A DNA stretch of 63,723 nucleotides, filler included, from Chrysochromulina tobinii (Eukaryota): the NCBI GenBank assembly GCA_001275005.1. It is 8 parts of 8 records of this genome, joined end to end, with 100 filler letters (N's around TTAATTAATTAA, not from the genome) between each part and the next. Parts side by side here need not be neighbours in the genome. Positions count along the whole stretch, not along the records: positions 61,553 to 63,723 come from JWZX01000203.1; 7 more parts are not named here. One strand, given 5' to 3'. Each line of letters begins with the position of its first letter. Positions within the stretch are counted from its first letter, which is position 1. The notes under the pieces are model-generated. The model saw nothing but the letters and a program-made list of their open reading frames with translations, did not search any database and was not told where the DNA came from. A program made the translations under genes and the position numbers. This document shows positions 23,509 through 63,723 of this stretch, in pieces.

Positions 23509-23801
23509 TGAGGCTACACGGCTTCATGTTTTTTTGAATGCAAACAGAGAAGGAAGGACAAATGACCGGAACGGCGCCCTGTTAGGTCGAAGTGTGAGCG
23601 GCTCCTGTTGCCTTCAGATTGCTACCTGATTATTCATACGTCCACATTGCGGACTCAGTGCGGAAAAAATTTAACCGCCACGGAGATCGCCGGTGAACGA
23701 CGTTCGCGGGAGGTGCTGCAGGGTTCTCCTGCAGGCTGCACGCCGGGGCTGATCGCCGCTGACTGTGACCGCGCTTCTCTCCAAGGAGCGCTTCGGCGGC
23801 T

Positions 23802-26800
23802 ATGGGCCCATGGGTCGTGCTCGTACTGCTGCTGCTGCCCACCTTCGCCATGGCGGCCGTCGTCCAGAAAGTCGCTGGTCCTGACCAGTCGGAAGTCTCT
23901 CACGCCTCGTCGGGCGGGGGGGCCCACATCTACTTGTCTGGCGTTGATATTGGCTCCGCGTTCGCGCCGCCAAAAGTATTCATCGGCATCAACGCCGATG
24001 CCGAGTGCAAGGTGCAGCCCTTCACCTCTAGCCGCAACCGGCTGCACTGCATCGTGAGCCCAGAGAACCTGCCAGCGCCCAACCCGGACTACTATCCCAA
24101 CGGGCTCGATCTCAATTTCGGCGGAGGGGGGCATGGGCGCTCCGGGAGAACGCGCGATCCGCTTTTCGTTCGAGAGCCGCTGCGGGTGCTCAAGGAGGGC
24201 CGCCTCGCGCCGTGCTGGCACGTGGGTGGCCTGAACCACAACTGCATGATCGAGTTTGACGTCGCCGCAACGCCGCGCGTCTACCGCATGCTTACTACGT
24301 TGGTCGAGTCCGGTGGCCATGTGCGTGTCGTGGGCCGCGGCATCGATGGCGGTGTGACCGGCGATCCCAAGGTGATGGCAACGCTCTACCGCGGTCACAA
24401 CATGGCCACCGGCTCGTGCGGCCAGAAGGACTGCCAAGCTTCAAACATGGGCATGGAGACAGTGGGCTGCATCACGCGCCTCGGCGGCGAGGAAGGCGAT
24501 AGCGTGCTCGGTCAAAAAACGGCCGTGGCGACCGCGTACTCGAGCGACAACTCCTTTGGCTGCAAGCTTGGTGCGCTCGAACCGGGTCTGACCGCGGGCT
24601 TCTTCAACCTGTCGCTGTACCTCAACGACGCCAAGCACCGCGGGAATGCGTACCTGGGCTTCATGAGCACGGGGGCGATCGACCTCTCAACTGGGTCGCC
24701 CTTTGATGCGGAGCTGTTACCTCGGATCAGCGAGATCGTACCAAGTGAAGGCTCGTTGGCGGGCGGCACGGACCTGACCATCTTTGGAACGGGCTTTGGC
24801 GCCGACACGACCGCGCTCCGCATCCTGGTTGGCAGCGCCTCGTGCGCCGTGACTTCGGTCACGAAAGCGGCAATCCAATGCCGCATGGAGGAGCTCAGCA
24901 ATGGTCTCGACCAGCCGCCCGTGGCTATCGGCTCGGCGAGGTCGAGCCCGGGCGAGCGCGGCGTTCGTTGGCAGTTGGCCGACGGCAAGATCATGCTCCT
25001 CCCCTCCTTTGCCACTGATTTCGGTTGGGTCCCCGGACAGCTGAATTCGCAGGGCAGCGTGATTAGTCCGGACTGGACGGGGGCAAATGCCGCCGGCACC
25101 ACCACGTTCGTCGACGGGTGGTTTGAGGCGCCCGTTGACGGCGACGTGACGTTCATGCTCCGGCAGGACGTGGTGAGCAAGCTTTACTGGAGCGGCAGCG
25201 CGGCGGCGAGCCGCACCACGATGCTTGCAAACGTCGCGAGCGTCATGCAGCCGCCCGTCCTAGTGGAGAGGTGGAACAACGTCTGTGCGCCTGCGTTCCC
25301 CGCATCCCCATGCAGAAGGGACGTGTGGAAAGACGGCCTCGCCCCTGCACATCCCAACGGCCCTCGAATCCTATCGTCCTCGCATCCTAACGGCCTCGCC
25401 CCCAACACAACCTCGTACGCCTGGACGGTCCGTTCAAACTCGAACGCTCAACAGGCAAGGTTTACTTGCCCCGCCACCTGTGACTCGTGTACCCCCGCCT
25501 GGTGTACCTTCGACTACGCCCTGCGCTACACGGGCCAGTTCCAGGCGCCCAAGACAGGCACATACAACTTTAAAGTCCGATGTGGTCCGCATGTACGCGC
25601 GCGCTTCTTCATCAATGGCGTGCTCCTCGTCGAGTGTCTTCAGGTCACCGCCCCCGTGGGCTACCAAGGGGAGAATGCCGAATGCTCGGACGGCGCGTGC
25701 AATGACGGTGCCGCCAATTCGGGCACCACGAGTTGGGCCGATCGTTTCAACGCTGACATCTCTTTGATCGGTGGGCAGTGGTACAATTTCGAGCTGCAAC
25801 ATCAGGCGGCGGTGGCCCTTCCGGCAGGCCCTGCCCATGGAAGGGCAGGAGTTCAGTGGCGGACTCCCGGCGATTGTGTTACGCATTCAGGTGAGCTCCA
25901 CTGTGAGGACGTCCATCTCTTTGCTAATGGGTGGAGGGACTTCTCTCCGACGCCGCGCGTGTGGCCGTCGCTCGAGTCGACAAGCAGCGCTGTCTCGCCG
26001 CGGGTTACGCTCGTGCGCGGGCAGCGCTACTGGCTGGGGCTCGAGTGCAACCACAGTGCGACCACAGTGCAACTCGTGCCGGGCTCAAGTGACCCGAGAG
26101 GTGTACTAACCACGGAGATGCGACCCTGTGCCGTTGGAGCTCGCATACACACAACGCGCCTGCCGGTGGACTCGTCGATCGAACGGCGGCGGCTTGCTTC
26201 GCGCACTCGAGCCAAGACCGTCAATCCTACTAGTTGGCCTTGGCCTATTTTGAGAACTTCCAATGATGCGCAGTGCAACACCATTCTAAACCATGAGCGT
26301 TGCTGCGCCAGCTTCGACCTCTGGGGCGACCCCTGCGTACCAGCCATCGAAACTTTTGGCTACGGCCGTGTCTGCATGAACGCGCAATGGGTCGCCGAGT
26401 TCGAGCCCACGAAGCAAGCCGCCTGTCCGCCACGACGTGATCCCGCCACGAAGCTCGCGCGCGCTCGTGCGAAGCTCGGGCACATGGTTGGCTGCCACAC
26501 CCTCACCGATCGCGTGGCGTGCTCGAGTGCCGTCGATGGCCGCACGCAGGCCACGCACCTCAACCAGCCGTGCATCGCCGCCTCCACCAGGTTTGCCAAC
26601 GGTAACGTGTGCGAGACGGCGTGGTACGTCAAGAATTTAGACCCGACGGGCGCCGCCTCGCTCGTCGAGGCCGTCTCGCCGTACATGCAAGTGGCCTCGG
26701 GGCAAGAGCTCCTGCATCACGAGGTGCAGTCCATCACTCTGACGCAGGCCAACGCCACCAAGATGGAGCAGACCATCACCTTCACGTTCATCGAATGCAC

Positions 26801-29800
26801 GGGCAACTACACGGACAGCAACTGCATCGGCACGCGCGGAGGCTTCGTGCATCTCGCGCTCGGCGATCGCCTCTCGCTGCCCATCCACATCGCTTCGCCA
26901 ATCGACAGTTACGACTTCCGGCCGGCTGCCATGCAGCCCCTGCTCGGCGACACGTATAGCGGAGTGGCCATCAAGTCCGTCGACGTGCAGCACACAAATG
27001 TGACGTGGGTGCTTGAGCTCACGACCTCGTGGGCCTCGTGCACGAACCAGCTAAACCTGCCGCTCCTGTCCACCGTCCGGGAGGCAAAGGCGACAGCGAA
27101 TGTCACCGTCACCCGTACGGCCTCGTGCCTCTCAGGCGGCATCGACCTGGCCTACGGCAACGGCAGTACCACCGCCTTCTTGCCCTGGTCAGCCAATGAG
27201 TCGACAGCCACGGCCATCATCGCCTCACTTCTGCCCAACTCGTTTTCGATCGATCGAACCGACAATGTCGATCTAGTTGAATCCTCGTCGTCGACGCTCG
27301 ATTGGTCGTCGGTGCGATCGGACAGAGTCATGGTGCAACGCAGCGGCGATGGCCACACCTCGGCCTTGTTCACCGTCACCTTCCTCGGCGTCGGCACCAA
27401 GGAGATGCTCAGAGTGTCCTCTGCCGGCGGCCTCCAAAAGAGCACGTTCTCGAGCCTCTCCCCGCCCACTCTCGCGCTCACCTCCAGGGACGTCAGCGTC
27501 GCGGTCACACGCCTGATGCCAGGTGGTGTGGACCTGACTCCACTGCCAGGCCGCTACCTGAGCGCCGCGGCGAACTCCACGGTGGTGAGCGTGCGTATCA
27601 ACCCGCAGACGACTGCCGCGTGCTCGGCCACCAACTGGGAGGTGCAGTACATGGGCTGCTATACCCTACGGCAACTACCTACGGCGGCGTCATCACACTT
27701 TTGGGGGACCGACAGGTCCACGGAACTCGTAGGCGCCCCGCTCCCGACCTGGGAACGCAACAACCGAGGCGTTAGCCCACAACGCTGCTTCCTCAAATGC
27801 CAATCTCAGCACGGAAGCAGTGCCGTCGCTTTTGGCTTGCATAAGCCTTCGATCCGTAACGATATGGGACGCTGCCGCTGCTACACGAGCGAGCCCTCTA
27901 ATGGCACAGTCGCTCCACACAACTGCAAAGATACCTGCAACGACGAAGGCTTCCTTTGCGGCAGGTCTGATGATGAAATCACTGGCAATGGGGTCACTGG
28001 TTCTGGAATCCGACCTGCGAGCACAAGTTTTCCGGCGCCTCTCTGCTCAAATACTTGCAATTGGGCGTCCGACGGCGATTGTGACGATGGCGGCCCCGGC
28101 TCGGAAACTAGTTCCTGCACGTTGGGCGACGATTGCGCCGACTGCGGGCCGGCAACGGATACACTGATCTCAGTCTACCGCATGCCCGCGCCAGCCACCA
28201 GCTGTAGCTTTACGGCCCTTTCCTCGCGCACGGCGACGCTGATCGCTTCGTCTGCGACGGCTCTTGCTGCGAATGCGACGCTCACGCTCACGGGAAACGG
28301 CTTTGGCAAGACCGGTGCGACGGTCACCGTCTGTGGCGGGCGCACATGCGCGGTGGCGTCGCAGACGAACACGCAAATCACGTGCAGGATGCCAGATTGC
28401 CCCGTCGAGACGACGGAGAAGATTTTCGTCCACATCGCGCCCTATGGCTACGCATCGAATGCCAACAGCCTGAGCGTCAAGGGCGTTCTCTCGCTCGCTG
28501 GCGTGGCGCTCCGAGGCGGCACGACCAGCGGTACGCCCTCTGGCAGTGCGGCGGGTGGCGTGCGCCTCATGCTCACGGGCACGGGCTTCAGCTCCGACAT
28601 CACCAAGATGCAGGTGGACATCATGTCCAGCGCCACGGTACTCGCCCCATGCACGGTCACCTACAGCACCATGGGCAGTATCGAGTGCCTCACCTCCGCC
28701 GCGGCCGCGCCGCTGGCCGCCGCGGGCTCCACTCTGGACGTGCGCGTCTCAGCTCTGGGCGCCAGCAATAGCGTGCTCTCGACAAGCATCAAGCCGCAGT
28801 CGTACAGCCTGTACTCGGTCGCCAACTCGGTGGTCATTCAGTCCTTTCCTTACTCGTCGGGCTCGACGCAGGGTGGCCTTGAGCTTTGCATCGTCGCCAC
28901 CAACCTCAACAGCTACTTGGGTGCGCCCACTAGCGCGCTGAATGCGACGCAGCCCGCACCCACTGTCCTTCTTGGCACGGCACGGTGCGTCACCACCAAC
29001 GCATCATGGACCTCCACGCAGCTTTGCTGCACCACTTCCGCCCAACCGTCGGGTCAGGTGCCCATCACCTTCGACGTACCCTCCTTTGGGTATGCGCTGA
29101 GCGCCACCGGGGTGACAACGACGTTCACCTATTCGAGCGCTCCGCACCTATACAGCGTAGCCCCTGCCTTTGGGCGGGCGGGCACGCTCGTCGATGTCGA
29201 GATGAGCGTCGTTCATGACGTGATCCCGCAGGTGTTCCTCGGCAGCGCACCATGTCGCCATCGTGGCAACTACACGACAACATACACGGCGCACGCGAGC
29301 GAAGCCATGCATGTGCTGTGCGAGGCCACGGAATCGCCACCGGGCAACGTGACCGTCTCGGTGCTCGTGCCTGGCGCCGGTCTAGCCAAAGACGTTACGA
29401 ACAACATGACGTTCCTCTATCGGATCAGCATCACTGGAGTGTCGCCTGCCTCGGGCTCAGCGGGCGGTGGCACCCTTTTGACCATCACCGGCACGGGCTT
29501 TGATTACCTGGGCGATCCGCCACAGGCCGTGGGGAACGGCGGCTTCCTTGGAAGCGGCGGTTCGTGCACCACGCCTGGTGCCAACGTGGGCGCCTGTGCG
29601 GGCTCAGATGCGCAGACAGAGGCTTCCGCCATCAACCATCTGATCAGAATTGGTAGCGTGCCGTGCCTCGTCCAATCTCGCAACGCCACCAGGCTCACGT
29701 GCGTCACCGGCCCTGTCGTACCAGCGACAACCGGCTTGCAGGACTGGATCGATTCGTTCTATCCTAGGCCTCCCTCTCCGCCGCCGCCATCGCCTCCTCC

Positions 29801-30034
29801 ATCGCCACCGCCCTCGCCGCCACCATTTCCGCCGCCGCCAAGCCCGCCGCCGCGCGCGCCGCCATCGCCGCCACTGCGGCCCTCGCCGCTGCGTCCGCCG
29901 CCATACCCGTCGCCCTTCCCTCCACCATTCCGTCCGCCGTCTCCCTCCCCTCCGCCGCCCTCTCCCTCCCCGCCGCCGCCAAGCCTGCCGCCTTCGCCGT
30001 TTCAGCCAGAGCCGCCCGAGCCGCCGCCATTTCC
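23802..30034 (+). CDS. Giant secreted/surface protein with IPT/TIG, PA14, WSC-like and Cys-rich modules (fibrocystin-L/PKHD1L1-like), 3'-partial
   Basis: Signal peptide; IPT motifs (PSEGSLAGGTDLTIFGTGF, SPASGSAGGGTLLTITGTGF); PA14 (YTGQFQAPKTGTYNF); WSC-like (YMGCY..CFLKC..CRC); CSNTC..SDGDCDDGGPG..C.LG.DC.DCG; SPPP linker running into the gap. Confidence 0.8.
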
Positions 30035-30134
30035 NNNNNNNNNNNNNNNNNNNNNNNNNNNNNNNNNNNNNNNNNNNNTTAATTAATTAANNNNNNNNNN
30101 NNNNNNNNNNNNNNNNNNNNNNNNNNNNNNNNNN
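30035..30134. other. Artificial contig linker
   Basis: N44-TTAATTAATTAA-N44. Confidence 0.99.
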
Positions 30135-45724: not shown

Positions 45725-45824
45725 NNNNNNNNNNNNNNNNNNNNNNNNNNNNNNNNNNNNNNNNNNNNTTAATTAATTAANNNNNNNNNNNNNNNNNNNN
45801 NNNNNNNNNNNNNNNNNNNNNNNN
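45725..45824. other. Artificial contig linker
   Basis: N44-TTAATTAATTAA-N44. Confidence 0.99.
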
Positions 45825-46305
45825 GTGGTGAGGGCGGCGGTGGCGAGGGCGGCGGTGGCAAGGGTGAAAGCGGCGGTGGTGATGGCGGAGGTGGCAAGGG
45901 CGGCGGTGGTGAGGGCGGTGGTGATGGCGATGGTGGCGAGGGCCATGGCGGTGGTGGTCATGGCGGCGGTGGCGATGGCGGTGGTGGTGATGGCGGCTGT
46001 GGCGAGGGCGTTGGTGGTCATAGCAGCGGTGGTGATGGCAGTGGTGGTCATGGCGGTGGTGGTGATGGCGGTGGTGGTGATGGCGGTGGTGGTGATGGCG
46101 GTGGTGGTGATGGCGGCGGTGGAGAGGGCGGTGGTGGTGATGGCGATGGTAGTGGCGGTGATGGCGGTGGTGGAAAGGGAGGCGGTGGCGAGGGCGGCGG
46201 TGGCGAGGGCGGCGGCGGCGAGGGCGGAGGTGGCGAGGGCGGTGGCGGTGGCGGTGGTGGCGGTGGTGGTGATGGCGGCTGTGGCGAGGGAGGCGGTGGT
46301 GAGGG
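45825..46305. repeat. Degenerate 15-bp minisatellite (GGTGGTGATGGCGGT-type)
   Basis: About 30 imperfect units. The minus strand reads SPPPP (with in-frame TGA stops), ITTTA/LATAA or HHHHR depending on frame. Confidence 0.85.
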
Positions 46306-46513
46306 CGCCACGGCTTTTCGCATTTGGGCGGTTTATGCGACTTCCAAGTAAGGTTCGAACGAAACATCTGATATAAGAAACGCACCAAACTAAGGCAATG
46401 GATCGCGCTGACGACGAAACACTCCTTGCCTTACATCGGCTTCGTTCGAGCCAACAACCCTTAAATGGATGAGGCTGTAAGTTCTCCCTTTTGCATTTGG
46501 CCTTCCGAAAGCG

Positions 46514-48639
46514 ATGACGATCTGCCCACATTGCCGACACTCCTTTAGCGCCCTCGGCAAGCACCTGGCGCAATCGCTGCCGTGCCGCCTCTCCCAGTAC
46601 CCTCCACCGCCGCCTCCGGAAGTCGACCACGAGGAAGTTGACAACTCTGAGAACGACATCACGGTGACCGTCGCCTACGGCCTCGCGAGGCTTCTCGTGC
46701 GCCACGGCTGCCACCATACGGCCGTGCAGGAGATGATCGCCATCACGAACAACGTGTTGGCGTTCGCGCAGTCCAACATCTTGTCGGACATGCGGCGGCT
46801 CCCTGGCTCCTCCTCGATCGCGGCGAGGATTGAAACCATCCTCGCTGAGCGCCTGAAGCTGTACGAGGGCCTCGACACGCCGCACAAGCAGATGAAGTTC
46901 ATCAAGAAGATGTTCGGCCCGAAGTACGTGGAGCCGACCCTTCTCTTTCTCGGCGAGCGCACGTACACGTTCGAGGACGAGGAGGGAACCATCCACACGT
47001 ACAAGGAGCAGGAGGCGCACGCGGTCACGTTCGACCTCGTAGCTGAGTCGATGCGTGTGATGGAGGCCTCGGACATCGCGTACCAGCACGTCGTCGACAC
47101 ATCGAGCCGCTGGCGCGTCGGGACGCGGAATCTTCCAAAGCCCACCGCCCTCGCCGACATTACCGACGGCACCAACTTCCTGGAGCATCCGCTCCTCGTC
47201 GACCCGGAGGACGACGACGTGCTCATCATCGCACTCATGCTCTCTGCCGACGCGGTGGAGACATGCAACCCGGTTGGGGTCGCACGCGGCAAGCACAAGA
47301 TCGTCGGCGTGCTCTTCTCGCTGCTCAACCTGCCGAGCGGCATGCGCACGCGCAAGGAATACATCGGCACCGCCATGCTCGCGCTGAATGACGACATGAA
47401 GTTCTACGGCGCCACACACCTGCTCGGCGGCTGCGACAGCGACCTCGAGCCGATTGCGGGCATGGAGGCGTCCGTGGGCGCACAGCTCCGACGCTACTCC
47501 ACGCCCGTCCCCGTCACCGTCCGTGGCAAGCAGTGGCGGCTGAAGATCGTCCCGGTGCTGCTCACCGCGGACTTCGAGGCGCAAGGCCTCTTCGGCTTCG
47601 AGAGTGAGAGCGCTAATGCTCACTTCCTCTGCCGCCTCTGCCTCTTCAACAAGTCGGTGGAGGGTGCCTACACCAAGCCGACCGACTACATCTCGAAGCC
47701 GGGGCGTGGGCGTGGGCGCAAGCGCCCGTGGCCAGAGCGCACAGCGCCCGAGGTGGAGGCGCTCATGGCCGAGTTGCGCGAGCTGCGCGAGCAAAACGAT
47801 GCTAAAGGAGCTGAGGAGTTCTCCACCAAGCACGGCATCTTTTCGTCCGAGTCGCCCTTTCACTCGAAGGTCACGCCGGGCTTCAACATCGTGGACTTTA
47901 GGCCACAGGACACCATGCACCTGATCGGCTGTGGCCTCGGCCTGCGCGACGCGTCAGAGCTGGTCCATTGGGGTGTGAAGAGGGTGAAGGCCTTCGACGT
48001 GCCAAAGCTCAACGGACGGCTCGCAAGGTGCGCGCCGCCCTAGCCGCCGGTACCCACGCATGCACTGATCTCGCTCGCTCCCTTTGCCCTCACAGCATGA
48101 AGGAGGACAGCGCCGACGCAATCGACCTGCCGGCCTTCCACCCCTGCATCGTCGAGTCCGACGAGTTGGGCATGGCGAAGAACAAGTTGAGGCTAAAGGC
48201 GGCGCAGGTGCACACCTTCATGCGCATTAGCGAGGAGCTCATCAGCCCGCTGCTCGGCGACCATGTGGACGACCCAGTCTGGCAGGCGTGGCTGAAGCAC
48301 GTTGAGCTGGTCAACTTGATGATGGCGCCCAACTTCACTCTCTCGTCGGTGAATAATCTGGACAAGATGATCCATGAGCACCAGGCACTCTATGCCGACC
48401 TGCATAAGGCCCACTTCCTCCCCAAGCACCATTTCATGCGCCACGTGCCCAAGGACATCCTGCGCTGTGGCCCTCCGCGCTACTACTGGTGCTTCCCATT
48501 CGAGGCTTACAACCGCCGCGTGAAGCACTGGGCGGAGCACTCTAACCGAAAGGCCGAGCTGCTGCACGTGGCTATGATGCTGTCGCTGCAGACGGCATTG
48601 GAGCTGATGGAGATGCGTGAAGCTGCTGATGATGAATGA
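46514..48639 (+). CDS. CACTA/CMC-superfamily (EnSpm/Mirage/Plavaka-like) DDE transposase; exons 46514-48027, 48096-48639
   Basis: N-terminal CPHC..HL; DITDG; LMLSADAVETCNP..KHKI..SLLNLP..R; TADFEA; CRLC; QDTMH; PKHHFMRH..GPPRYYWCFPFEAYN. In-frame GT-AG intron 48028-48095. Confidence 0.8.
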
Positions 48640-54830: not shown

Positions 54831-54968
54831 GTGGCGGCAAACACAAGAGCGCTCTACTGGGCGCGGATCGAAGTTGATGGCGAATTTGTCTTCGTCACAT
54901 GTAGTTCGCCTTCCTATTTGAGGTAGAGAAGTTTGTGTACCTTTTTCGGCACGAATCATCGTAAGAAG

Positions 54969-57900
54969 ATGTCGAGTGGGCTCGTGGAGTGGTTAAACCT
55001 CGTCGCTGCGGACCAGGGCGATGCCGCGGAGCATTGCGCACTTGGATACATGCACCGTGACGGACGTGGTGTGGCCCAAGATGATAAGCAGGCTGCGGCG
55101 CTGTTCAAGCTCGCTGCGGAACAGGGCGATGCCGCGGCGCAGTGCGCACTTGGAGCCATGCACCTTGAGGGACGCGGTGTGGCCCAAGATGATAAGCGGG
55201 CGGCAGAGCTGTTCAAGCTCGCTGCGGACCAGGGCGATGCCATGGCGCAGTGCGCACTTGGACGCATGCACCATTACGGACGCGGTGTGGCCCAAGATGA
55301 TAAGCGGGCTGCCGTGCTGTACAAGCTCGCTGCGGACCAGGGCGATGCTCCGGCGCAGGGCGCGCTTGGAGCCATGCACCTTGAGGGACGCGGTGTGGCC
55401 CAAGATGATAAGCGGGCTGCAGAGCTGTTGAAGCTCGCTGCAGACCAGGGCGATGCCGCAGCGCAGTGCTCACTTGGAGTCCTGCACCGTGAGGGACGCG
55501 GTGTGGCCCAAGATGATAAGCGGGCTGCAGAGCTGTACAAGCTCGCTGCGGATCAGGGCCATGCCGCGGCGCAGTGCTCACTTGGAGCCATGTACCGTGC
55601 CGGACGCGGTGTGGCCCAAGATGATAAGCGGGCGGCAGAGCTGTTCAAGCTAGCTGCGGACCAGGGCTATGCCGTGGCGCAGTACTCACTTGGACGCATG
55701 CACCTTGAGGGACGCGGTGTGGCCCAAGACGATAAGCGGGCCGCTGAGCTGTACAAGCTCGCTTCGGACCAGGGCGTTGCCGCAGCGCAGTGCTCACTTG
55801 GAGACATGCACCTTGAGGGACGCGGTGTGGCCCAAGATGATAAGCGGGCGGCAGAGCTGTTCAAGCTCGCTGCGGACCAGGGCCATGCCGCGGCGCAGTG
55901 CGGACTTGGAGCCATGCACCGTGAGGGACTCGGTGTGGCCCAAGACGATAAGCGGGCGGCAGAGCTGTACAAGCTCGCTGCGGACCAGGGCGTTGCCGCA
56001 GCGCAGTGCTCACTTGGAGACATGCACCGTGAGGGACGCGGTGTGGCCCAAGATGATAAGCGGGCGGCAGAGCTGTTCAAGCTTGCTGCGGACCAGGGCT
56101 ATGCCGTGGCGCAGTGCTCACTTGGAGACATGCACCGTGAGGGACGCGGTGTGGCCCAAGATGATAAGCGGGCCGCGGCGCTGTTCAAGCTCGCTGCGGA
56201 CCAGGGCGATGCTCCGGCGCAGTGCTTACTTGGACACATGCACCATGACGGACGCGGTGTGGCCCAAGATGATAAGCGGGCCACAGAGCTGTTCAAGCTC
56301 GCTGCGGACCAGGGCCATGCCGCGGCGCAGTGCGGACTTGGAGCCATGCACCATGACGGACGCGGTGTGGCCCAAGATGATAAGCGGGCGGCAGAGCTGT
56401 TCAAGCTTGCTGCGGACCAGGGCTATGCCGTGGCGCAGTGCTCACTTGGACACATGCACCATGACGGACGCGGTGTGGCCCAAGATGATAAGCGGGCTGC
56501 GGCGCTTTACAAGCTTGCTGCGGACCAGGGCGATGCCGCGGCTCAGTGCTCACTTGGAGACATGCACCTTGAGGGACGCGGTGTGGCCCAAGATGACAAG
56601 CGGGCGGCCGTGTTGTACAAGCTCGCTGCGGACCAAGGCGATGCCGCGGCGCAGTGCTCACTTGGACACATGCACCATGACGGACGCGGTGTGGCCCAAG
56701 ATGATAAGCGGGCTGCGGCGCTTTACAAGCTCGCTGCGGACCAGGGCCAAGCCGCGGCGCAGTGCTTACTTGGACACATGCACCGTGAGGGACGCGGTGT
56801 GGCCCAAGATGATAAGCGGGCGGCTGTGCTGTACAAGCTCGCTGCGGACCAGGGCGATGCCGCGGCGCAGTGCTCACTTGGACACATGCACCGTGAGGGA
56901 CGCGGTGTGGCCCAAGATGATAAGCGGGCCGCAGAGCTTTACAAGCTCGCTGCGGACCAGGGCGATGCCTTGGCGCAGTGCTCACTTGGACACATGCACC
57001 GTGAGGGACGCGGTGTGGCCCAAGATGATAAGCAGGCTGCAGAGCTGTACAAGCTTGCTGCGGACCAGGGCGATGCCGCGGCGCAGTGCTCACTTGGAGA
57101 CATGCACCTTGAGGGACGCAGTGTGGCCCAAGATGATAAGCGGGCGGCAGAGCTGTTCAAGCTTGCTGCCGACCAGGGCGATGCCGTGGCGCAGCGCCAG
57201 CTTGGACTCACTACGACCCAGCACATCTCCTCATCATGCGCGGCAGCAGCGCCCAGTGCAGGTGTCCTGTCCGTCGTGGCTTGCGGCGCTCGAGGCGGCC
57301 TCTCGCGCGAGGACGAGCAGGCACGCGCCGACGCGATGATGGCACTCCTGATCGCTGAAGAGGAAGCGAGAGCCGAAGCGGTGGCCGTAAAGGCGTCCAA
57401 GAAGGCGAAGAAGAAGGCGAAGAAGGGTAGAGCGGCGACCACAGCCGCAGGCGAGGCGGGCACCGGCTTGTCGGCGTCGCAAATAGAGCCGACGGAAGCG
57501 GAGTTGGTGGCAGAAGAGAAGATCGAGGAGCCTGCGGCAGAGGAAGTGGCGATGGCGGCAACAGCACCAGCATCGGAGGCCGTTGAGGCTGAGGAGGTCG
57601 TGGAGGCGACAGCTGCGGCAGAGGCGGCCGTAGCGGAGGCAGCAGACGCGGAGATGGCGGCGGCTGCGGCTGCTGAGCAGGCGGCAAAGGAGGCCGAGAA
57701 GGCGTCGGCACGGGCAGCAGCGCACGAGGCCGCCATGGCGGAGGCCGCGCGGGCAGCCAGGACGCAGGCGGAGAGGGCGGAGGCGGAGAGGGCGGAGGCG
57801 GAGAGGGCGGCGGCGGAAAGGGCGGAGGCGGAGAGGGCGGCGGCCCTGGCCGTGGCAGAGAGCGCTGGCCGCGGCGGGCGAGGGGGGCGAGGGGGGCGTG

Positions 57901-58235
57901 GAGGGCTTGGAGGGCGTGGTCCGACTACCGTGCATTCATTGCCCCCTGCCCCTGCGCCACCATCGGCCCCAGCACCGGCTGAAGGCTTGATGGCAGCGCT
58001 TAGGCCTCTGACGCTCGCCGACGTGGGTAACTTCACCGGCCGTGTGCACGACGAGGCGCCCGAGTCGACCATCGGTGGCCAGACCACGTGCATCGTGTGC
58101 ATGGTGGGGCCCAAGTCGCACCTTGCGGTGCCGTGCGGCCATCAGCTCGCGTGCGAGCGCTGCACGGCCAACATGAAGCTTTGCCCGTACTGTCGCACGC
58201 CCGTCCAGCTTTGGGTGATGCAACGGTTGGTGTAG
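54969..58235 (+). CDS. Sel1-repeat (20 x 36 aa) protein with coiled/Ala-Glu linker, RGG box and C-terminal C3HC4 RING finger
   Basis: 20 copies of LAADQGxAxAQCxLGxMHxxGRGVAQDDKRAAxLxK, then CIVCMVGPKSHLAVPCGHQLACERCTANMKLCPYCR. Intronless. Confidence 0.9.
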   Translation: MSSGLVEWLNLVAADQGDAAEHCALGYMHRDGRGVAQDDKQAAALFKLAAEQGDAAAQCALGAMHLEGRGVAQDDKRAAELFKLAADQGDAMAQCALGRMHHYGRGVAQDDKRAAVLYKLAADQGDAPAQGALGAMHLEGRGVAQDDKRAAELLKLAADQGDAAAQCSLGVLHREGRGVAQDDKRAAELYKLAADQGHAAAQCSLGAMYRAGRGVAQDDKRAAELFKLAADQGYAVAQYSLGRMHLEGRGVAQDDKRAAELYKLASDQGVAAAQCSLGDMHLEGRGVAQDDKRAAELFKLAADQGHAAAQCGLGAMHREGLGVAQDDKRAAELYKLAADQGVAAAQCSLGDMHREGRGVAQDDKRAAELFKLAADQGYAVAQCSLGDMHREGRGVAQDDKRAAALFKLAADQGDAPAQCLLGHMHHDGRGVAQDDKRATELFKLAADQGHAAAQCGLGAMHHDGRGVAQDDKRAAELFKLAADQGYAVAQCSLGHMHHDGRGVAQDDKRAAALYKLAADQGDAAAQCSLGDMHLEGRGVAQDDKRAAVLYKLAADQGDAAAQCSLGHMHHDGRGVAQDDKRAAALYKLAADQGQAAAQCLLGHMHREGRGVAQDDKRAAVLYKLAADQGDAAAQCSLGHMHREGRGVAQDDKRAAELYKLAADQGDALAQCSLGHMHREGRGVAQDDKQAAELYKLAADQGDAAAQCSLGDMHLEGRSVAQDDKRAAELFKLAADQGDAVAQRQLGLTTTQHISSSCAAAAPSAGVLSVVACGARGGLSREDEQARADAMMALLIAEEEARAEAVAVKASKKAKKKAKKGRAATTAAGEAGTGLSASQIEPTEAELVAEEKIEEPAAEEVAMAATAPASEAVEAEEVVEATAAAEAAVAEAADAEMAAAAAAEQAAKEAEKASARAAAHEAAMAEAARAARTQAERAEAERAEAERAAAERAEAERAAALAVAESAGRGGRGGRGGRGGLGGRGPTTVHSLPPAPAPPSAPAPAEGLMAALRPLTLADVGNFTGRVHDEAPESTIGGQTTCIVCMVGPKSHLAVPCGHQLACERCTANMKLCPYCRTPVQLWVMQRLV
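55002..57207 (+). repeat. 108-bp coding tandem array, ~20 units
   Basis: Near-invariant ggacgcggtgtggcccaagatgataagcggg core every 108 bp. Confidence 0.95.
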
Positions 58236-58997: not shown

Positions 58998-61452
58998 GCT
59001 CGCGCGTGCAGCTGGGCGGCGCGCGTGCGGCGTCGGGTCCCCATGCCGGGCGCGTGGCTCCTCTCTCTTGTCGGCGTGACGCTTGGCGTGTGGGTTGGAT
59101 GCTGTGCACGCCGCAGACAATAACATCGGCGACGACGGCGCGAGAGCTCTGGCGGCGTCGCTCGAGAAGAACACGACGCTCGAGACGCTCGACCTCGCAT
59201 GTGCGCGGCTCTGTGCTCGCGGTGGCTGGGTCGAAGGGGATGTGGCGCGTTCCCACGGCCGTTTACCGCGCGCGGGCGCACGATGCAGAGCGAGCTCGCG
59301 CGTGCAGTTGGGCGGCGCGCGTGCGGCGTCGGGTCCCCTTGCCGGTCGCGTGGCTCCTCTCTCTTGTCGGCGTGACGCTTGCCGTTTGGGTTGGGTGCTG
59401 TGCACGCCGCAGCCAATCAGATCGGCGACGACGTGTTTGAAGCGCTGGAAGCCTCGCTCATTCCGTCGTTCGACAAGCAGCAGGCCAAGGCGGCGGCTGG
59501 CGACAGGTTTGATGAAGCTGCCTTTGACGCCGCCGTGGTCGATGGCAGGGTCCCGCGTGCGGTGCTCATGGAAATCTCGTCATGGCTACAGGCACTCCGA
59601 GATGGGGCCACAGAGCTCGACCTCACAGGTCCGACACTGCTGGGTGGCTGGGTCGGCGCGGGGACGTGGAACCATGCTGTTATGCGCGCGCTCGGCGGCG
59701 CGTCGGGACCTATTGCCACGGTCGCGCGGTCATTTTTAGTTGTGACGCTGCAGTTTGAGTTTTGACGATTCTCGTTTGGGTTGGGTGCTGCACGCCGCAG
59801 GAAAGAAGATCGGCGATGTCGGCGCGAGAGCTCTGGCGACCTTGCTCGAGAGGAACACGACGCTCAAGAAGCTCAATTTGCAAAGTGCGCGGCTCTGTGC
59901 TCGGTGGCGGAGGTTTGGGTGGCGATCGCGTTTCCTTGTGTTGGGCCGTGCACCTCAAGGCGTCGGGTCCCCTTGCCGGGCGCGTGGCTCCTCTTCTAGT
60001 CGGCGTGACGCTTGCCGTGTGGGTTGGGTTCTGTGCACGCCGCAGGCAATAAGATCGGCGACGACGGCGCGAGAGCTCTGGCAACTTCGCTCGAGAAGAA
60101 CACGACGCTCGAGAAGCTCAACCTCTCAAGTGCGCGGCTCTGTGCTCGCGGTGGCTGGGAAAGGGGGGATGTGTGACGCGTTCCCACGGGCGGCGGCCGC
60201 GCGCGGGCGCACGATGCAGAGCGAGCTCGCGCGTGCAGCTGGGCGGCGCGCGTGCGGCGTCGGGTCCCCATGCCGGGCGCGTGGCTCCTCCTCTTGTCGG
60301 GGTGACGCTTGCCGTGTGGGTTGGGTGCTGTGCGCGCCGCAGGCAATAAGATCGGCGACGACGGCGCGAGAGCTCTGGCGGCCTCGCTCGAGAAGAACAC
60401 GACGCTCGAGACGCTCGGCCTCGCATGTGCGCGGCTCTGTGCTCGCGGTGGCTGGGGAGGGGGGATGTGGCGCTGTCCCACGGCCGGCGGCCGCGAACGG
60501 GCGCACGATGCAGAGCGAGCTCGCGCGTGCAGTTGGGCGGCGCGCGTGCGGCGTCGGGTCCCCATGCCGGGCGCGTGGCTCCTCCTCTTGTCGACGTGAC
60601 GCTTGCCGTTTGGGTTGGGTGCTGTGCACGCCGCAGTGAATGGCATCGGCGCCGACGGCGCGAGAGCTCTGGCGGCGTCGCTCGAGAAGAACACGACGCT
60701 CGAGACGCTCCACCTCGGAAGTGCGCGGCTCTGTGCTCGCGGTGGCTGGGGAAGGGGGGATGTGTGACGCGGTCCCACGGCCGGCGGCCGCGCGCGGCAA
60801 GCACGATGCAGAGCGAGCTCGCGCGTGCAGCTGGGCGGCGCGCGTGCGGCGTCGGGTCCCCATGCCGGGCGCGTGGCTCCTCCTCTTGTCGGCGTGACGC
60901 TTGCCGTGTGGGTTGCGTGCTGTGCACGCCGCAGGCAATCTTATCGGCGCCGACGGCGCGAGAGCTCTGGCAACTTCGCTCGAGAAGAACACGACGCTCG
61001 AGACGCTCGACCTCGCATGTGCGCGGCTCTGTGCTCGCGGTGGCTGGGAGAGGGGGGATGTGTGGCGCGGTCCCACGGCCGTCGGCCGCGCGCGGCAAGC
61101 ACGATGCAGAGCGAGCTCGCGCGTGCAGCTGGGCGGCGCGCGTGCGGCGTCGGGTCCCCTTGCCGGGCGCGTGGCTCCTCTCTCTTGTCGGCGTGACGTT
61201 TGCCGTGTGGGTTGGGTGCTGTGCACGCCGCAGGGAATGGCATCGGCGACGACGGCGCGAGAGCTCTGGCGACCTCGCTCGAGAAGAACACGACGCTCAA
61301 GACGCTCAACGTCGGAAGTGCGCGGCTCTGTGCTCGCGGTGGCTGGGAAAGGGGGGATGTGTGGCGCGGTCCCACGGCCGGCGGCCGCGCGCGGGCGCAC
61401 GATGCAGAGCGAGCTCGCGCGTGCAGCTGGGCGGCGCGCGTGCGGCGTCGGG
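58998..61452 (+). repeat. ~295-bp exon+intron tandem repeat array
   Basis: Introns of ~210-215 bp are near-identical to each other; one is shortened and one is unrelated. Confidence 0.92.
59117..61317 (+). CDS. Internal fragment of an NLRC3/RI-type LRR gene, one 28-aa LRR per exon; exons 59117-59200, 59413-59628, 59801-59884, 60046-60129, 60343-60426, 60637-60720, 60935-61018, 61234-61317
   Basis: Every exon follows a cgccgcag acceptor. The seven 84-nt exons end at a gtgcgcgg donor and encode xNxIGDDGARALAxSLEKNTTLxxLxL. All introns are phase 1 and the spliced frame is open. Confidence 0.9.
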
Positions 61453-61552
61453 NNNNNNNNNNNNNNNNNNNNNNNNNNNNNNNNNNNNNNNNNNNNTTAA
61501 TTAATTAANNNNNNNNNNNNNNNNNNNNNNNNNNNNNNNNNNNNNNNNNNNN
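61453..61552. other. Artificial contig linker
   Basis: N44-TTAATTAATTAA-N44. Confidence 0.99.
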
Positions 61553-61945
61553 CAGTGGCCGGTGGCCGGATCGCACAGCCCGTGACCCCAGCACTTGTGC
61601 CAACATAGGCTGTCCAAAGAGAGTTGCGGCTGCTCCCGCAAGGCGACGGCGAGGGTAGCTTCGAAGATAAGGCTCAGCATCGAAACCCTATCATTCACAC
61701 TTGCTGTCGAACGAATGATTGTGGCTCGCGCGAGCGATCCATCGAACCCAACTGACCTGCCCGCATCCTTGACAAGGATGTTCACTAATTTGACAAAATT
61801 CACACCTCGAACTTCGCGGCACCCCAAATGCCGCGAGTTTGGGCGGACGACCGCGTGCGCCAACACGGCCCCGCCTCGCTGCTCACACCAAGCGACTCAT
61901 CAAGCCGCCGCGGCTTCGAAAGGGTTTGGTGACAACCGCATTGCC

Positions 61946-63723
61946 ATGGCACCGAAGAAAGACACGGGCAAGAAGGACATGGGCAAACTGCCAGCATCAG
62001 GTAGTGACTCGCATCGCGGCGGGACCCCGAGCCATCGCGGCAGCGCCCCAAGCCATCGCGGCAACAGTCCGAGCAAGAAGGAAAAATCCAGCCGCGGCAA
62101 AGTCAAGAAAAAGGAGAAGTCTGCGTTGAACGCTGTCTCAGAGGGAGCCTTGGAAGACGACGGGGACGACACCAACCTCGACGACATCGATGACGACGAG
62201 CACGCTGTGCGGCCAGCCGTGACTAAAACCGTGGCCATGGGCGCACGGTCCGAGCTGAGTTCTCCGGACGCCTGTACACCGCTGCCGCCAAAGCTGCATC
62301 GGGCGCTCACAGAGCTCGACGAGATCGTCATACGAGTCCTCTTGTGTGGAGCGATTCGGTTGCTATGCGTGGAGTGGCTCCTGATGCAGCCGGACAACTT
62401 CAAGATGCCCAATCGGCAGGCGCTCGAGGCATTGGAAAAGAGCGGGGCCTCGCCATCGCCGCTGCTGAGCCGTGAAGCGGCCGCAGCGCTCGTTCGTCGT
62501 GGAGATCGGAGCATCGGCGCGCTTACCTATGGCTGGCTCAGTCCAGGCGATCCAGATCCGGCCGGCTCGCGCATCCGCGTGCTTCGACGCGCTCTGATGA
62601 GGCTGGCAATCAAAGCCTTGTTCTGGGATTTTGGATCATTGTATCAGGCCCCCAGGACACCGGAGCAGAAGGATTTCTTTGAGATCGCACTCAAGGGGGG
62701 GGCGATGAATCAGCTGTATGCGTCAATCCTTGCAACGACCGTGCTCCAGATTGAGGAGATCCCGCCCCGGCCAGATGAGTTTGATGGGGTTGTCTGCTTG
62801 TTCGAGCTGAGCTCAAACGCAGACGAGAGCGTGGTACGCGCGGCGCTCATCAGGTTCGGAACCATCGAGAGCTGCGACCTCAGCCGCAGCCCCGCCATCG
62901 TGCGCTTTGCTTTGCACGAGTCGGCTGTCGCGGCCAAGGACGCGGGTGCACCGCCTGGCCTCTGCGTGGGTCTCGACACGCTTTACAACGAGACGCCGTA
63001 CTTTAAACGTGGATGGTGAGCGCTGCCCACAGCATCCTATTATTTGCACCGATGTGATGGGATCCCCTCTCCTCATCCCTTGCACGCGACTGTGCCCCAC
63101 ACTGTCCCACACACGCAGGTGCTGCTGCGAGGACTCGTTGAGTCGGGAGCTGATCAAGAGGTTGACGGCCTACCCCGCGCTACGGGTGCACCTCGATAAG
63201 CTGCAGCCCAAGGTCTTCGCGCTGAGCAGCAAAGCAGACGCGACACGCGTTGAGGTAAAGGCGATCGAGCTGGATCCCGCTGCCGACATTGAGCGGATCA
63301 ACCAGTCCAAGTTCACGAGCAAGGGCGACAAGCCCAAGGTCATCAGCCTATACAAGGAGTACGTGCACAGCACCGTCGGCGCGCTGGAGAAGACGCTTGG
63401 GTCGCTTCAGCTGGACTCGACTGAGGGTACGCGGGTGGCGCTGCCGCCGATGCCCGTCGACACCGGATTCGCGTCGATGCGCGCGTGGCACCTCGACTGT
63501 CTGCGCGCGCAGCACGCGTCCATCCCCGACGCCCTCTCCGGCCAGCAGCTCAGCACGCTCACGGAGTGCGTGCCCATCGGCGTGGAGGGGCACGATGCCG
63601 ACGGCGGCAAGCCGCTCGCCGTGCGCGACGCACGTTCGCTGTGTGCGTGGCTGCACGACCTCCGCTCCAGCGCACGCACGTGCGCGCTGCTCACCGCCGG
63701 CCCGGCGGCGGGCAAGACGTGGC
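61946..63723 (+). CDS. HET-like domain with inserted RRM, followed by the start of a P-loop NTPase (NACHT-like), 3'-partial; exons 61946-63015, 63119->63723
   Basis: ALTYGWLSPGDPDP, LFWDFGSLYQ, MNQLYAS..TTVL, spliced YFKRGW/CCCE, FTSKGDKPKVISLY. RRM-like VCLFELSSNADESVVRAALIRFGTIESC..AIVRF..HESAVAA. The window ends in CALLTAGPAAGKTW (Walker A). Confidence 0.75.

What the first reader, a model, noticed from the sequence alone, without database searches (positions are those of the whole stretch)
61946..63723. HET-like effector + P-loop NTPase: NLR-like gene in an alga
Seen: the spliced product carries the HET-domain motif series (AL.Y.W, FWD..SL.Q, M..LY, Y..RGW..E). About 190 aa later, in a frame missing from the ORF track, comes LLTAGPAAGKT at the very end of the window. 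Established: HET (PF06985) is the cell-death effector of fungal HET-NACHT-WD40 NLRs and is related to TIR-type domains. Inference: an effector-NACHT-sensor NLR acting in allorecognition or antiviral programmed death in this lineage.
Basis: partly seen in the sequence, partly recalled or inferred. Interest (0 to 1): 0.82.

Follow-up and report, generated by a model that had tools for sequence, protein, structure and literature searches.

The report
Algal immune receptor with swappable parts
This is the front end of a gene from a single-celled alga that belongs to a large, recombining family built like the intracellular immune receptors of fungi, plants and animals, and it likely senses invaders with variable repeats and would then switch on a predicted cell-killing domain that carries an unexpected inserted RNA-binding-type fold.

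Summary
Observation confirmed. The window's closest named relatives are Chrysochromulina (haptophyte) proteins. The 103-nt GT..AG intron 63016-63118 is skipped in RNA contigs of 4 of 4 RNA runs laid. Near-identical loci extend the gene through Walker B and the other NACHT motifs into ankyrin repeats, ending in SPRY in complete copies. The N-terminal domain is a remote HET relative, not a Pfam HET member: the profile-profile match is 50.7%, score 37 against at most 19 for 60 shuffles, with all four motifs in order. Its TIR-like fold is only weakly supported (best Z 5.2). The Glu after RGW is kept in 96 of 96 relatives. A degenerate RRM fold is inserted inside the effector just before that Glu (Z 10.8). 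Two effector types about 50% alike each occur on three NACHT-sensor chassis (ANK, WD40, LRR) that stay 90-98% identical across types. An immune role and NAD+ cleavage are inferred, not shown; allorecognition has no support. New variant of a known kind.

The parts
61946..63015 (+). Exon 1 coding sequence (aa 1-357): variable low-complexity N-terminus, then most of the HET-like domain with its RRM insert
   Evidence: 100% identical to L001 over 1462 nt including upstream DNA
62285..63407 (+). HET-related effector domain (about aa 114-453, split by the intron); alpha/beta core with motifs ALTYGW (62519), FWDFGSLYQ (62621), MNQLY (62705), RGW-CCCE
   Evidence: model of the 88%-identical paralog P0004, pLDDT 96; profile match to 21 Pfam-confirmed HET domains; weak TIR/deoxyribosyltransferase fold matches for an insert-free relative
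62768..62986 (+). RRM-fold domain inserted inside the effector (about aa 275-347), between the third core strand and the helix bearing the conserved Glu; RNP aromatic residues mostly missing
   Evidence: VIA Z 10.8, rmsd 2.2 over 72 residues; profile hits to RRM structures; absent in 4 of 71 aligned relatives; aromatic counts
63016..63118 (+). 103-nt GT..AG intron that splits the Trp codon of RGW
63129..63131 (+). Glu361, invariant; predicted catalytic residue
   Evidence: 96 of 96 relatives that span the site and have RGW-type motifs; aligns with the invariant QE Glu of HET
63119..63723 (+). Exon 2, open at the window end: end of the effector, short linker, start of the NACHT module
   Evidence: 93.9-96.5% identical to L001, L002, L004-L006, L008, L009
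63687..63719 (+). Walker A / P-loop LLTAGPAAGKT of the NACHT domain; the rest of the NACHT, the ANK repeats and SPRY lie beyond the window and are read from related loci

Best explanation
This gene encodes a HET-related domain followed by the start of a NACHT ATPase, and likely ankyrin repeats beyond the window, and it most likely works as an intracellular immune receptor whose variable repeats would bind an invader's molecule, whose ATPase would then oligomerise, and whose clustered HET-related domains are predicted to use an invariant glutamate to cleave NAD+ or a related nucleotide and so kill or alarm the cell. Shown: the spliced reading frame, the motifs, the architecture in near-identical copies, remote HET homology, the RRM insert, family expansion, effector/chassis recombination and variable repeat positions. 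Inferred: that this copy ends in ANK(-SPRY) (about 85%), an immune role (about 70%), catalysis by Glu361 (about 50%), and a trigger from giant viruses or ingested microbes (not tested). The RRM is likely a protein-binding lid or decoy rather than a canonical RNA binder.
For: (1) L001 is 100% identical over upstream DNA, exon 1 and the intron and continues through LLLLDGLDE, TSRPAG, NPLMLSM and HLSFQEYY into ANK repeats; L004-L006 end in ANK-SPRY and a stop. (2) HET link: hhalign 50.7%, E 1.6e-4, 111 columns, four motifs colinear, score 37.0; controls were 60 column shuffles (max 19.2), reversed profile 16.6, HET vs NACHT profile 15.7. (3) The insert-free model's best structural match is the SpbK TIR domain, and 13 of 50 rows are TIR/SEFIR and 7 are nucleoside deoxyribosyltransferases; the Glu sits on the helix after the third core strand, where TIR enzymes carry theirs (recalled). 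(4) Glu kept in 96 of 96. (5) Expansion: 122 clusters at 90% identity and 1302 representatives at 50%. (6) Two effector types by three chassis, all six combinations seen; NACHT 90-98% identical within a chassis across effector types that are 48-54% alike. (7) 38 ANK units from 4 loci are 74-82% identical in DNA within a gene, while positions 1, 5, 10 and 13 have entropy 2.6-3.0 bits, like the concave-face variation in fungal NLR ankyrins (PMC4986451, passages). (8) Precedents: HET is sufficient for death in fungi (PMC10197012, passages); TIR-like NADases sit on NACHT proteins (bioRxiv 10.64898/2026.09.21.753143, abstract); TIR, LRR and NACHT genes are up in virus-resistant Gephyrocapsa huxleyi (PMC12489294, passages).
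Against: No functional or infection data. No Pfam HET or TIR hit in any family member scanned, and single-sequence HMM searches between HET and this family were not significant (best E 0.11). With the RRM left in, the HET match falls to 2.8% or 40%. The structural match is weak: Z 5.2, rmsd 3.4 over 101 residues, below the tool's mark of 8, with glycosyltransferases close behind; Foldseek gave no E under 0.001. No enzyme activity is known for any HET domain (PMC10890737 and PMC12881547, passages). The NACHT scores 21.3 bits against a Pfam cut-off of 26.7, and a family profile did not hit the NACHT part of any solved NLR. The window ends 4 nt after Walker A, so its own tail is unseen. pN/pS at the variable ANK sites (1.3-1.8) is a crude count on non-independent pairs.
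Confidence: 0.6

Rival explanations
1. Same receptor, but the HET-related domain is a non-catalytic adaptor that recruits partner proteins carrying the same domain (the MORN, kinase or stand-alone forms), as Dyrka et al. proposed for fungal HET.
For: Many relatives carry the domain with MORN repeats or a kinase and no NACHT hit. Many of the TIR matches are to scaffold TIRs such as MyD88, MAL and TRIF. A 70-residue insert sits next to the predicted active site.
Against: The invariant Glu (96 of 96) and a cluster of near-invariant polar residues (Q121, R124, S147, D115, D91 in model numbering) fit a pocket better than an interface.
Confidence: 0.2
2. A STAND signalling protein for non-immune cues (metabolic, developmental or stress), whose family grew by repeat-driven duplication.
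For: No infection or death data. STAND ATPases with repeats also have non-immune roles (recalled). ANK, LRR, WD40 and MORN repeats are generic.
Against: Recent effector/chassis swapping, very large copy number and variation concentrated at a few repeat positions are the pattern described for fungal NLRs (PMC4986451, section 13 and passages).
Confidence: 0.1
3. An allorecognition gene like Podospora het-e, killing cells after fusion with a non-self strain.
For: HET homology and internally conserved repeats resemble the HNWD genes.
Against: Only 4 of 132 HET genes of Podospora act in incompatibility (PMC10890737, passages). I know of no vegetative fusion in these unicells (recalled). Nothing in the loci points to a partner het gene.
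Confidence: 0.05
4. This particular copy is an assembly mosaic or a truncated pseudogene of the family.
For: The gene follows a scaffold gap (61454-61553) and is cut by the window end. Exon 2 matches L002/L009 100% in its first 200 nt, then L006 100% in the next 100. No whole genome is held.
Against: 558 codons are open with all motifs intact, and the first 1565 nt are identical to L001. Mosaicism is also what gene conversion gives, and a swap is seen between two named C. tobinii proteins (P0006 vs P0297: effector 52%, NACHT 92%).
Confidence: 0.05

Closest known systems
Fungal HET-NACHT-WD40/ANK NLRs (Podospora HET-E, HET-D, HET-R; Dyrka et al. 2014, PMC4986451)
   Same: HET-type motif series before a NACHT domain, internally conserved repeats with a few variable positions, combinatorial joining of effector, NOD and repeats.
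   Different: The effector is outside PF06985, about 270 aa, and carries an RRM insert. The family uses LRR as well as ANK and WD40, whereas that paper found no LRR in fungal NLRs. The host is a unicellular haptophyte. ANK units are about 68-74% identical in protein, under that paper's 85% mark for high internal conservation.
TIR-type NADase STAND receptors: plant TIR-NB-LRR and animal TeTIR-NACHT-WD40/TPR (bioRxiv 10.64898/2026.09.21.753143)
   Same: A TIR-like alpha/beta effector with a conserved Glu placed directly before a STAND ATPase and repeats.
   Different: No sequence match to TIR families, only a weak fold match (Z 5.2), and NADase activity is untested. The TeTIR paper's text names neither haptophytes nor algae.
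HET, TIR and NACHT genes already reported in haptophytes (Emiliania HET in Fig. 6 of PMC4986451; G. huxleyi resistance genes in PMC12489294)
   Same: Same lineage and the same domain classes.
   Different: Those are Pfam-detectable domains reported separately. The passages seen describe no joined HET-like-NACHT-repeat family, RRM insert or effector swapping.
Brown-algal ROCO-LRR and NB-ARC-TPR candidate receptors with exon shuffling (PMC3341825, search listing only)
   Same: Fast-evolving repeat receptors in an alga; the LRR gene just upstream in the window has one repeat per exon.
   Different: A different NTPase class; in the ANK-type copies here the repeats lie in one long exon.

Membership tests
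HET domain (PF06985) | Match to the Pfam model at its cut-off | tested here: not met
   No PF06985 row for 58 family proteins with full listings (E limits 10 to 0.001; P0302's list was cut and is not counted); 21 of 21 control HET domains hit
HET domain (PF06985) | Colinear motif blocks (ALSY.W, W.D..C..Q, M..IY, R.W..QE) by profile-profile alignment | tested here: met
   hhalign 50.7%, E 1.6e-4 for one pair, score 37.0 vs at most 19.2 in 60 shuffles; weaker with other alignments: 18%, 40%, 2.8%. Supports remote homology only.
HET domain (PF06985) | Sufficient to cause cell death | not testable with these tools
   needs expression
TIR superfamily | Flavodoxin-like TIR fold | tested here: inconclusive
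   Best VIA hit SpbK TIR, Z 5.2, rmsd 3.4, 101 aligned; 13 of 50 rows TIR/SEFIR; under the tool's mark of 8; Foldseek not significant
TIR superfamily | Catalytic Glu on the helix after the third strand | tested here: inconclusive
   Invariant Glu at that place in the secondary-structure order; no residue-level superposition was available
TIR superfamily | NAD+ cleavage | not testable with these tools
   needs assay
NACHT STAND ATPase / NLR-like receptor | Walker A | tested here: met
   AGPAAGKT in the window; Ala, not Gly, in the first position
NACHT STAND ATPase / NLR-like receptor | Walker B and downstream NACHT motifs | tested here: met
   In near-identical loci, not in the window: LLLLDGLDE, TSRPAG, NPLMLSM, HLSFQE; motif names recalled
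NACHT STAND ATPase / NLR-like receptor | Pfam NACHT (PF05729) at cut-off | tested here: inconclusive
   L001 21.3 bits, E 2.7e-4, cut-off 26.7; four relatives pass: P0226 33.2, P0299 32.8, P0303 28.8, P0314 28.0
NACHT STAND ATPase / NLR-like receptor | C-terminal repeat sensor | tested here: met
   ANK in L001, L004-L006, L009-L011; WD40 in L016, L018; LRR in P0006, L014, L015; unseen for the window's own copy
NACHT STAND ATPase / NLR-like receptor | Ligand-induced oligomerisation and immune output | not testable with these tools
   needs experiment
RRM | RRM fold | tested here: met
   Z 10.8, rmsd 2.2, 72 aligned; the listed rows (Z 8.9-10.8) centre on the insert, model residues about 160-235
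RRM | RNP1/RNP2 RNA-stacking aromatics | tested here: not met
   Aromatic at RNP1 positions 3 and 5 in 0 of 67 and RNP2 position 2 in 4 of 67; RNP2 position 4 in 36 of 67; positions assigned by eye from the recalled consensus

The most novel reading that the evidence does not exclude
Haptophytes run a large combinatorial NLR repertoire against giant viruses in which the inserted RRM is an integrated sensor or substrate clamp: it gates, or feeds nucleic acid to, a HET/TIR-like active site, giving a two-input receptor (variable repeats plus RRM) and a direct way to test what HET domains catalyse.
Probability: 0.15. Interest if true: 0.9.

Novelty: new variant of a known kind. Interest (0 to 1): 0.66.

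Why it matters
How bloom-forming algae resist giant viruses is largely unknown at the molecular level, and what HET domains do biochemically is still open (PMC10890737, PMC12881547). This family offers named candidates for both questions. It has a compact, confidently modelled effector with one invariant Glu, natural variants with and without an inserted RRM, and natural swaps of effector and sensor that work as built-in controls. It also shows fungal-style combinatorial receptor evolution, here including LRR sensors, in a single-celled lineage far from fungi, plants and animals. Standard annotation misses it because Pfam sees neither the effector nor, at cut-off, the NACHT of most copies.

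Tried and rejected
No whole genome is held, so copy number per genome could not be counted. Pfam, NCBIfam and PADLOC gave no family for the effector. ESM Atlas gave only unnamed haptophyte clusters at 0.87, a lead only, and nothing for the insert-free relative. Foldseek against PDB and BFVD gave no E under 0.001. Sequence-profile searches of PDB were filled by RRM, MORN and LRR hits. A two-copy complex prediction with NAD gave no verdict (score 0.00, alignment not used). Two-pattern scans found no relative in prokaryote genomes or viral contigs, a weak test. RNA contigs covered the NACHT and ANK parts of L001 only patchily, which shows nothing. Earlier scan findings: none by sequence or by words. 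The window's upstream LRR exons are not treated as part of this gene: they lie before a scaffold gap, and L001, L002 and L019 have a SPRY tail there instead. The first tree run lost 17 of 27 rows to a faulty pattern and was redone with 23 of 24 rows, P0313 dropped. Literature searches that found no description of this family: haptophyte+NACHT+NLR, Chrysochromulina+NACHT (43), RRM/TIR/NLR/algae (85), Emiliania+NLR+NACHT+ankyrin (104), Haptophyta/NACHT/immune receptors/protists (109), Chrysochromulina tobin+heterokaryon (111). The library lacks most subscription papers, and I read no supplements; tables S7-S9 of PMC12489294 may list relatives.

Full report
Source and observation. The best named hits of the N-terminal domain are Chrysochromulina parva and C. 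tobinii proteins at 76-88% identity, so the window is most likely from this haptophyte genus; no whole genome is held. The coding sequence starts at 61946. Removing 63016-63118 (103 nt, GT..AG) gives 558 codons with no stop to the window end, with ALTYGW at aa 192, FWDFGSLYQ at 226, MNQLY at 254, YFKRGWCCCE at 352-361 and LLTAGPAAGKT at 547-557. RNA contigs skip this intron in X1, X2 and X10 and in X3 and X10 at 95% likeness, that is 4 of the 4 RNA runs laid; the two runs of unrecorded type do not show the joint. The spliced contigs differ slightly from the window and X1 also has an unspliced contig, so splicing is shown for the family and is very likely for this copy.

What lies beyond the window. 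A metagenome scan returned 20 loci. L001 is identical to the window over 1462 nt of upstream DNA and exon 1 and over the intron, and 94.5% identical in exon 2. Its exon 2 is one open frame of 1281 codons with Walker B (LLLLDGLDE), TSRPAG, NPLMLSM and HLSFQEYY, then ankyrin repeats; L004-L006 run on to a SPRY domain and a stop. Seven loci are 93.9-96.5% identical to the window's exon 2. Five of them (L001, L004-L006, L009) are long enough to show a sensor, and all five show ANK. The window's copy is therefore very likely effector-NACHT-ANK(-SPRY). Pfam NACHT scores 21.3 bits here, under its cut-off of 26.7, while four relatives pass. A family profile did not reach the NACHT of any solved NLR.

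Is the effector HET? Pfam HET did not hit any of 58 family proteins with full listings. To test it directly I collected HET domains with a degenerate motif scan of genome and viral contigs (51 loci), kept the 21 that read furthest through the motifs (one duplicate dropped), and confirmed 21 of 21 by Pfam. With the insert columns removed, the family profile aligns to the HET profile over 111 columns with all four motifs in order: probability 50.7%, E 1.6e-4 for the single pair, score 37.0. Controls scored at most 19.2 (60 column shuffles), 16.6 (reversed) and 15.7 (HET vs this family's NACHT profile). Other pairings were weaker: 18% and 40% and 2.8% with the insert left in. Single-sequence HMM searches were not significant. 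It is a remote HET relative, not a member of PF06985.

Fold. AlphaFold2 models of the domain from paralog P0004 and from an insert-free relative, P0224, are confident (pLDDT 96.0 and 96.5). For the insert-free model the best match among 48,161 chains is the TIR domain of SpbK (Z 5.2, rmsd 3.4, 101 aligned). Of the 50 rows, 13 are TIR/SEFIR and 7 are nucleoside deoxyribosyltransferases; many others are glycosyltransferase-like. These scores are under the tool's mark for more than a common arrangement, and Foldseek found nothing significant, so the TIR-like fold is plausible but unproven. The Glu after RGW lies on the helix that follows the third core strand, where TIR enzymes carry their catalytic Glu (recalled). 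It is kept in 96 of 96 relatives that span the site and have the motif; 2 further rows lacked the motif, and many rows are close kin. It aligns with the invariant Glu of the HET controls.

An inserted RRM. Model residues 162-234 (about 62768-62986) match RRM domains (Z 10.8, rmsd 2.2 over 72 residues), as do the sequence profile and a weak Pfam hit. Four of 71 aligned relatives have only 7-9 residues in its place, so it is a clean insertion between the third strand and the Glu helix. The query carried the insert, so that ratio is biased towards insert-bearing forms. The RNA-stacking aromatics are missing: 0 of 67 at RNP1 positions 3 and 5, and 4 of 67 at RNP2 position 2 (positions assigned from the recalled consensus). 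A protein-binding lid or decoy is more likely than canonical RNA binding.

A recombining repertoire. The domain has 122 hits clustered at 90% identity and 1302 representatives at 50% identity. Among 23 receptors with both domains, a six-member type A group (RGWCCCE, split by the intron in the loci read) and a 15-member type B group (RGWCVFE) are 48-54% alike; two rows fall outside both. Each type occurs with ANK, WD40 and LRR chassis. The NACHT tree groups by sensor, not by effector type: NACHT is 92-98% identical between L001 and type B ANK proteins, 94-98% between L016 and type B WD40 proteins, and 91-92% between P0006 and three type B LRR proteins, but 52-75% between chassis. Metagenome chimeras could add false combinations, but two named C. 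tobinii proteins already show a swap (P0006 vs P0297: effector 52%, NACHT 92%). Further relatives join the domain to MORN repeats, kinases, PUB or EF-hands. In 38 ANK units from L001, L006, L009 and L010 (irregular units were left out by the pattern), DNA identity within a gene is 74-82%, the scaffold is near-invariant, and positions 1, 5, 10 and 13 vary most. L001, L002 and L019 carry the SPRY tail of another copy just upstream, so some copies lie in tandem.

Mechanism. By analogy with NACHT receptors (established knowledge), the repeats would hold the ATPase closed until they bind a ligand; nucleotide exchange would then drive oligomerisation and cluster the effectors. I commit to Glu-dependent cleavage of NAD+ or a related nucleotide as the output, at about even odds against an adaptor role, and to defence against viruses or ingested microbes as the purpose (about 70% for immunity of some kind). 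None of this was tested. Allorecognition has no specific support.

Comparison with the literature. PMC4986451 (passages and section 13) describes fungal HET-NACHT-repeat receptors, combinatorial assortment, variable concave ANK sites, no LRRs, and HET homologues in Haptophyceae. PMC10197012, PMC10890737 and PMC12881547 (passages) state that HET kills cells by an unknown mechanism. PMC12489294 (passages) reports TIR, LRR and NACHT genes up in virus-resistant G. huxleyi. bioRxiv 10.64898/2026.09.21.753143 (abstract and passages) shows NADase activity for another TIR-like effector on NACHT proteins. PMC7539657 (passages) scored NACHT/NB-ARC presence in protists, including Haptophyta. PMC3341825 and PMC7145615 were seen as search listings only. 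Six searches found no description of this family; no supplements were read.

Verdict. A real NLR-like gene, a new variant of a known kind. The architecture class is known, and algal NLR-like genes are not new. The HET-related effector with an inserted RRM and the two-by-three swapping of effectors and ANK, WD40 and LRR chassis in a unicellular alga were not found in print. Interest 0.66.

Noticed in passing
window 59117-61317 (+): LRR gene with one 28-residue repeat per 84-nt exon (six such exons found). The four introns between the last five exons are 210-215 nt with 199-207 identical bases per pair, and variation falls at a few exon positions: an exon-shuffling-ready array like brown-algal ROCO/LRR genes. 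It is bounded by scaffold gaps.
   Followed up: partly
window 54927-58235 (+): Single-frame 1102-aa protein with about 20 near-identical Sel1 repeats, an Ala/Glu-rich linker and a C-terminal RING finger. It lies next to the LRR gene and this receptor, so the three may form a small cluster of variable-repeat genes.
   Followed up: no
L001:1-660, also L002 and L019: SPRY-encoding tail of another family member (92% to L006) about 1.1 kb upstream of the ATG: head-to-tail tandem copies.
   Followed up: partly
window 63119-63723: Exon 2 is a patchwork: 100% to L002/L009 in the first 200 nt, 100% to L006 in the next 100, and 94% at best in 63519-63618; gene conversion or assembly mosaic.
   Followed up: partly
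window 62156-62198: A short segment encoding DDGDDTNLDDIDDD is shared by many transcripts with unlike flanks on both sides (loose ends); it may be a recombination junction where different N-termini join the effector.
   Followed up: no
window 45773-48639: Open frames that look like a transposase-derived gene (Plavaka/CACTA-like by recalled motifs), not tested.
   Followed up: no
window 23769-30086 (+): 2105-aa frame resembling a fibrocystin-L-like surface protein with repeated IPT/TIG-type domains (by eye).
   Followed up: no
L021-L061 (record NYXK01, 21 of 45 genome loci): One bacterial MAG labelled Deltaproteobacteria CPC1 holds many fungal-type HET genes, some apparently with introns, and probably contains fungal contigs.
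   Followed up: no
P0317: A Noctiluca scintillans protein matches the effector profile weakly (E 2e-7) with RGWCIFE, hinting that the domain reaches dinoflagellates.
   Followed up: no
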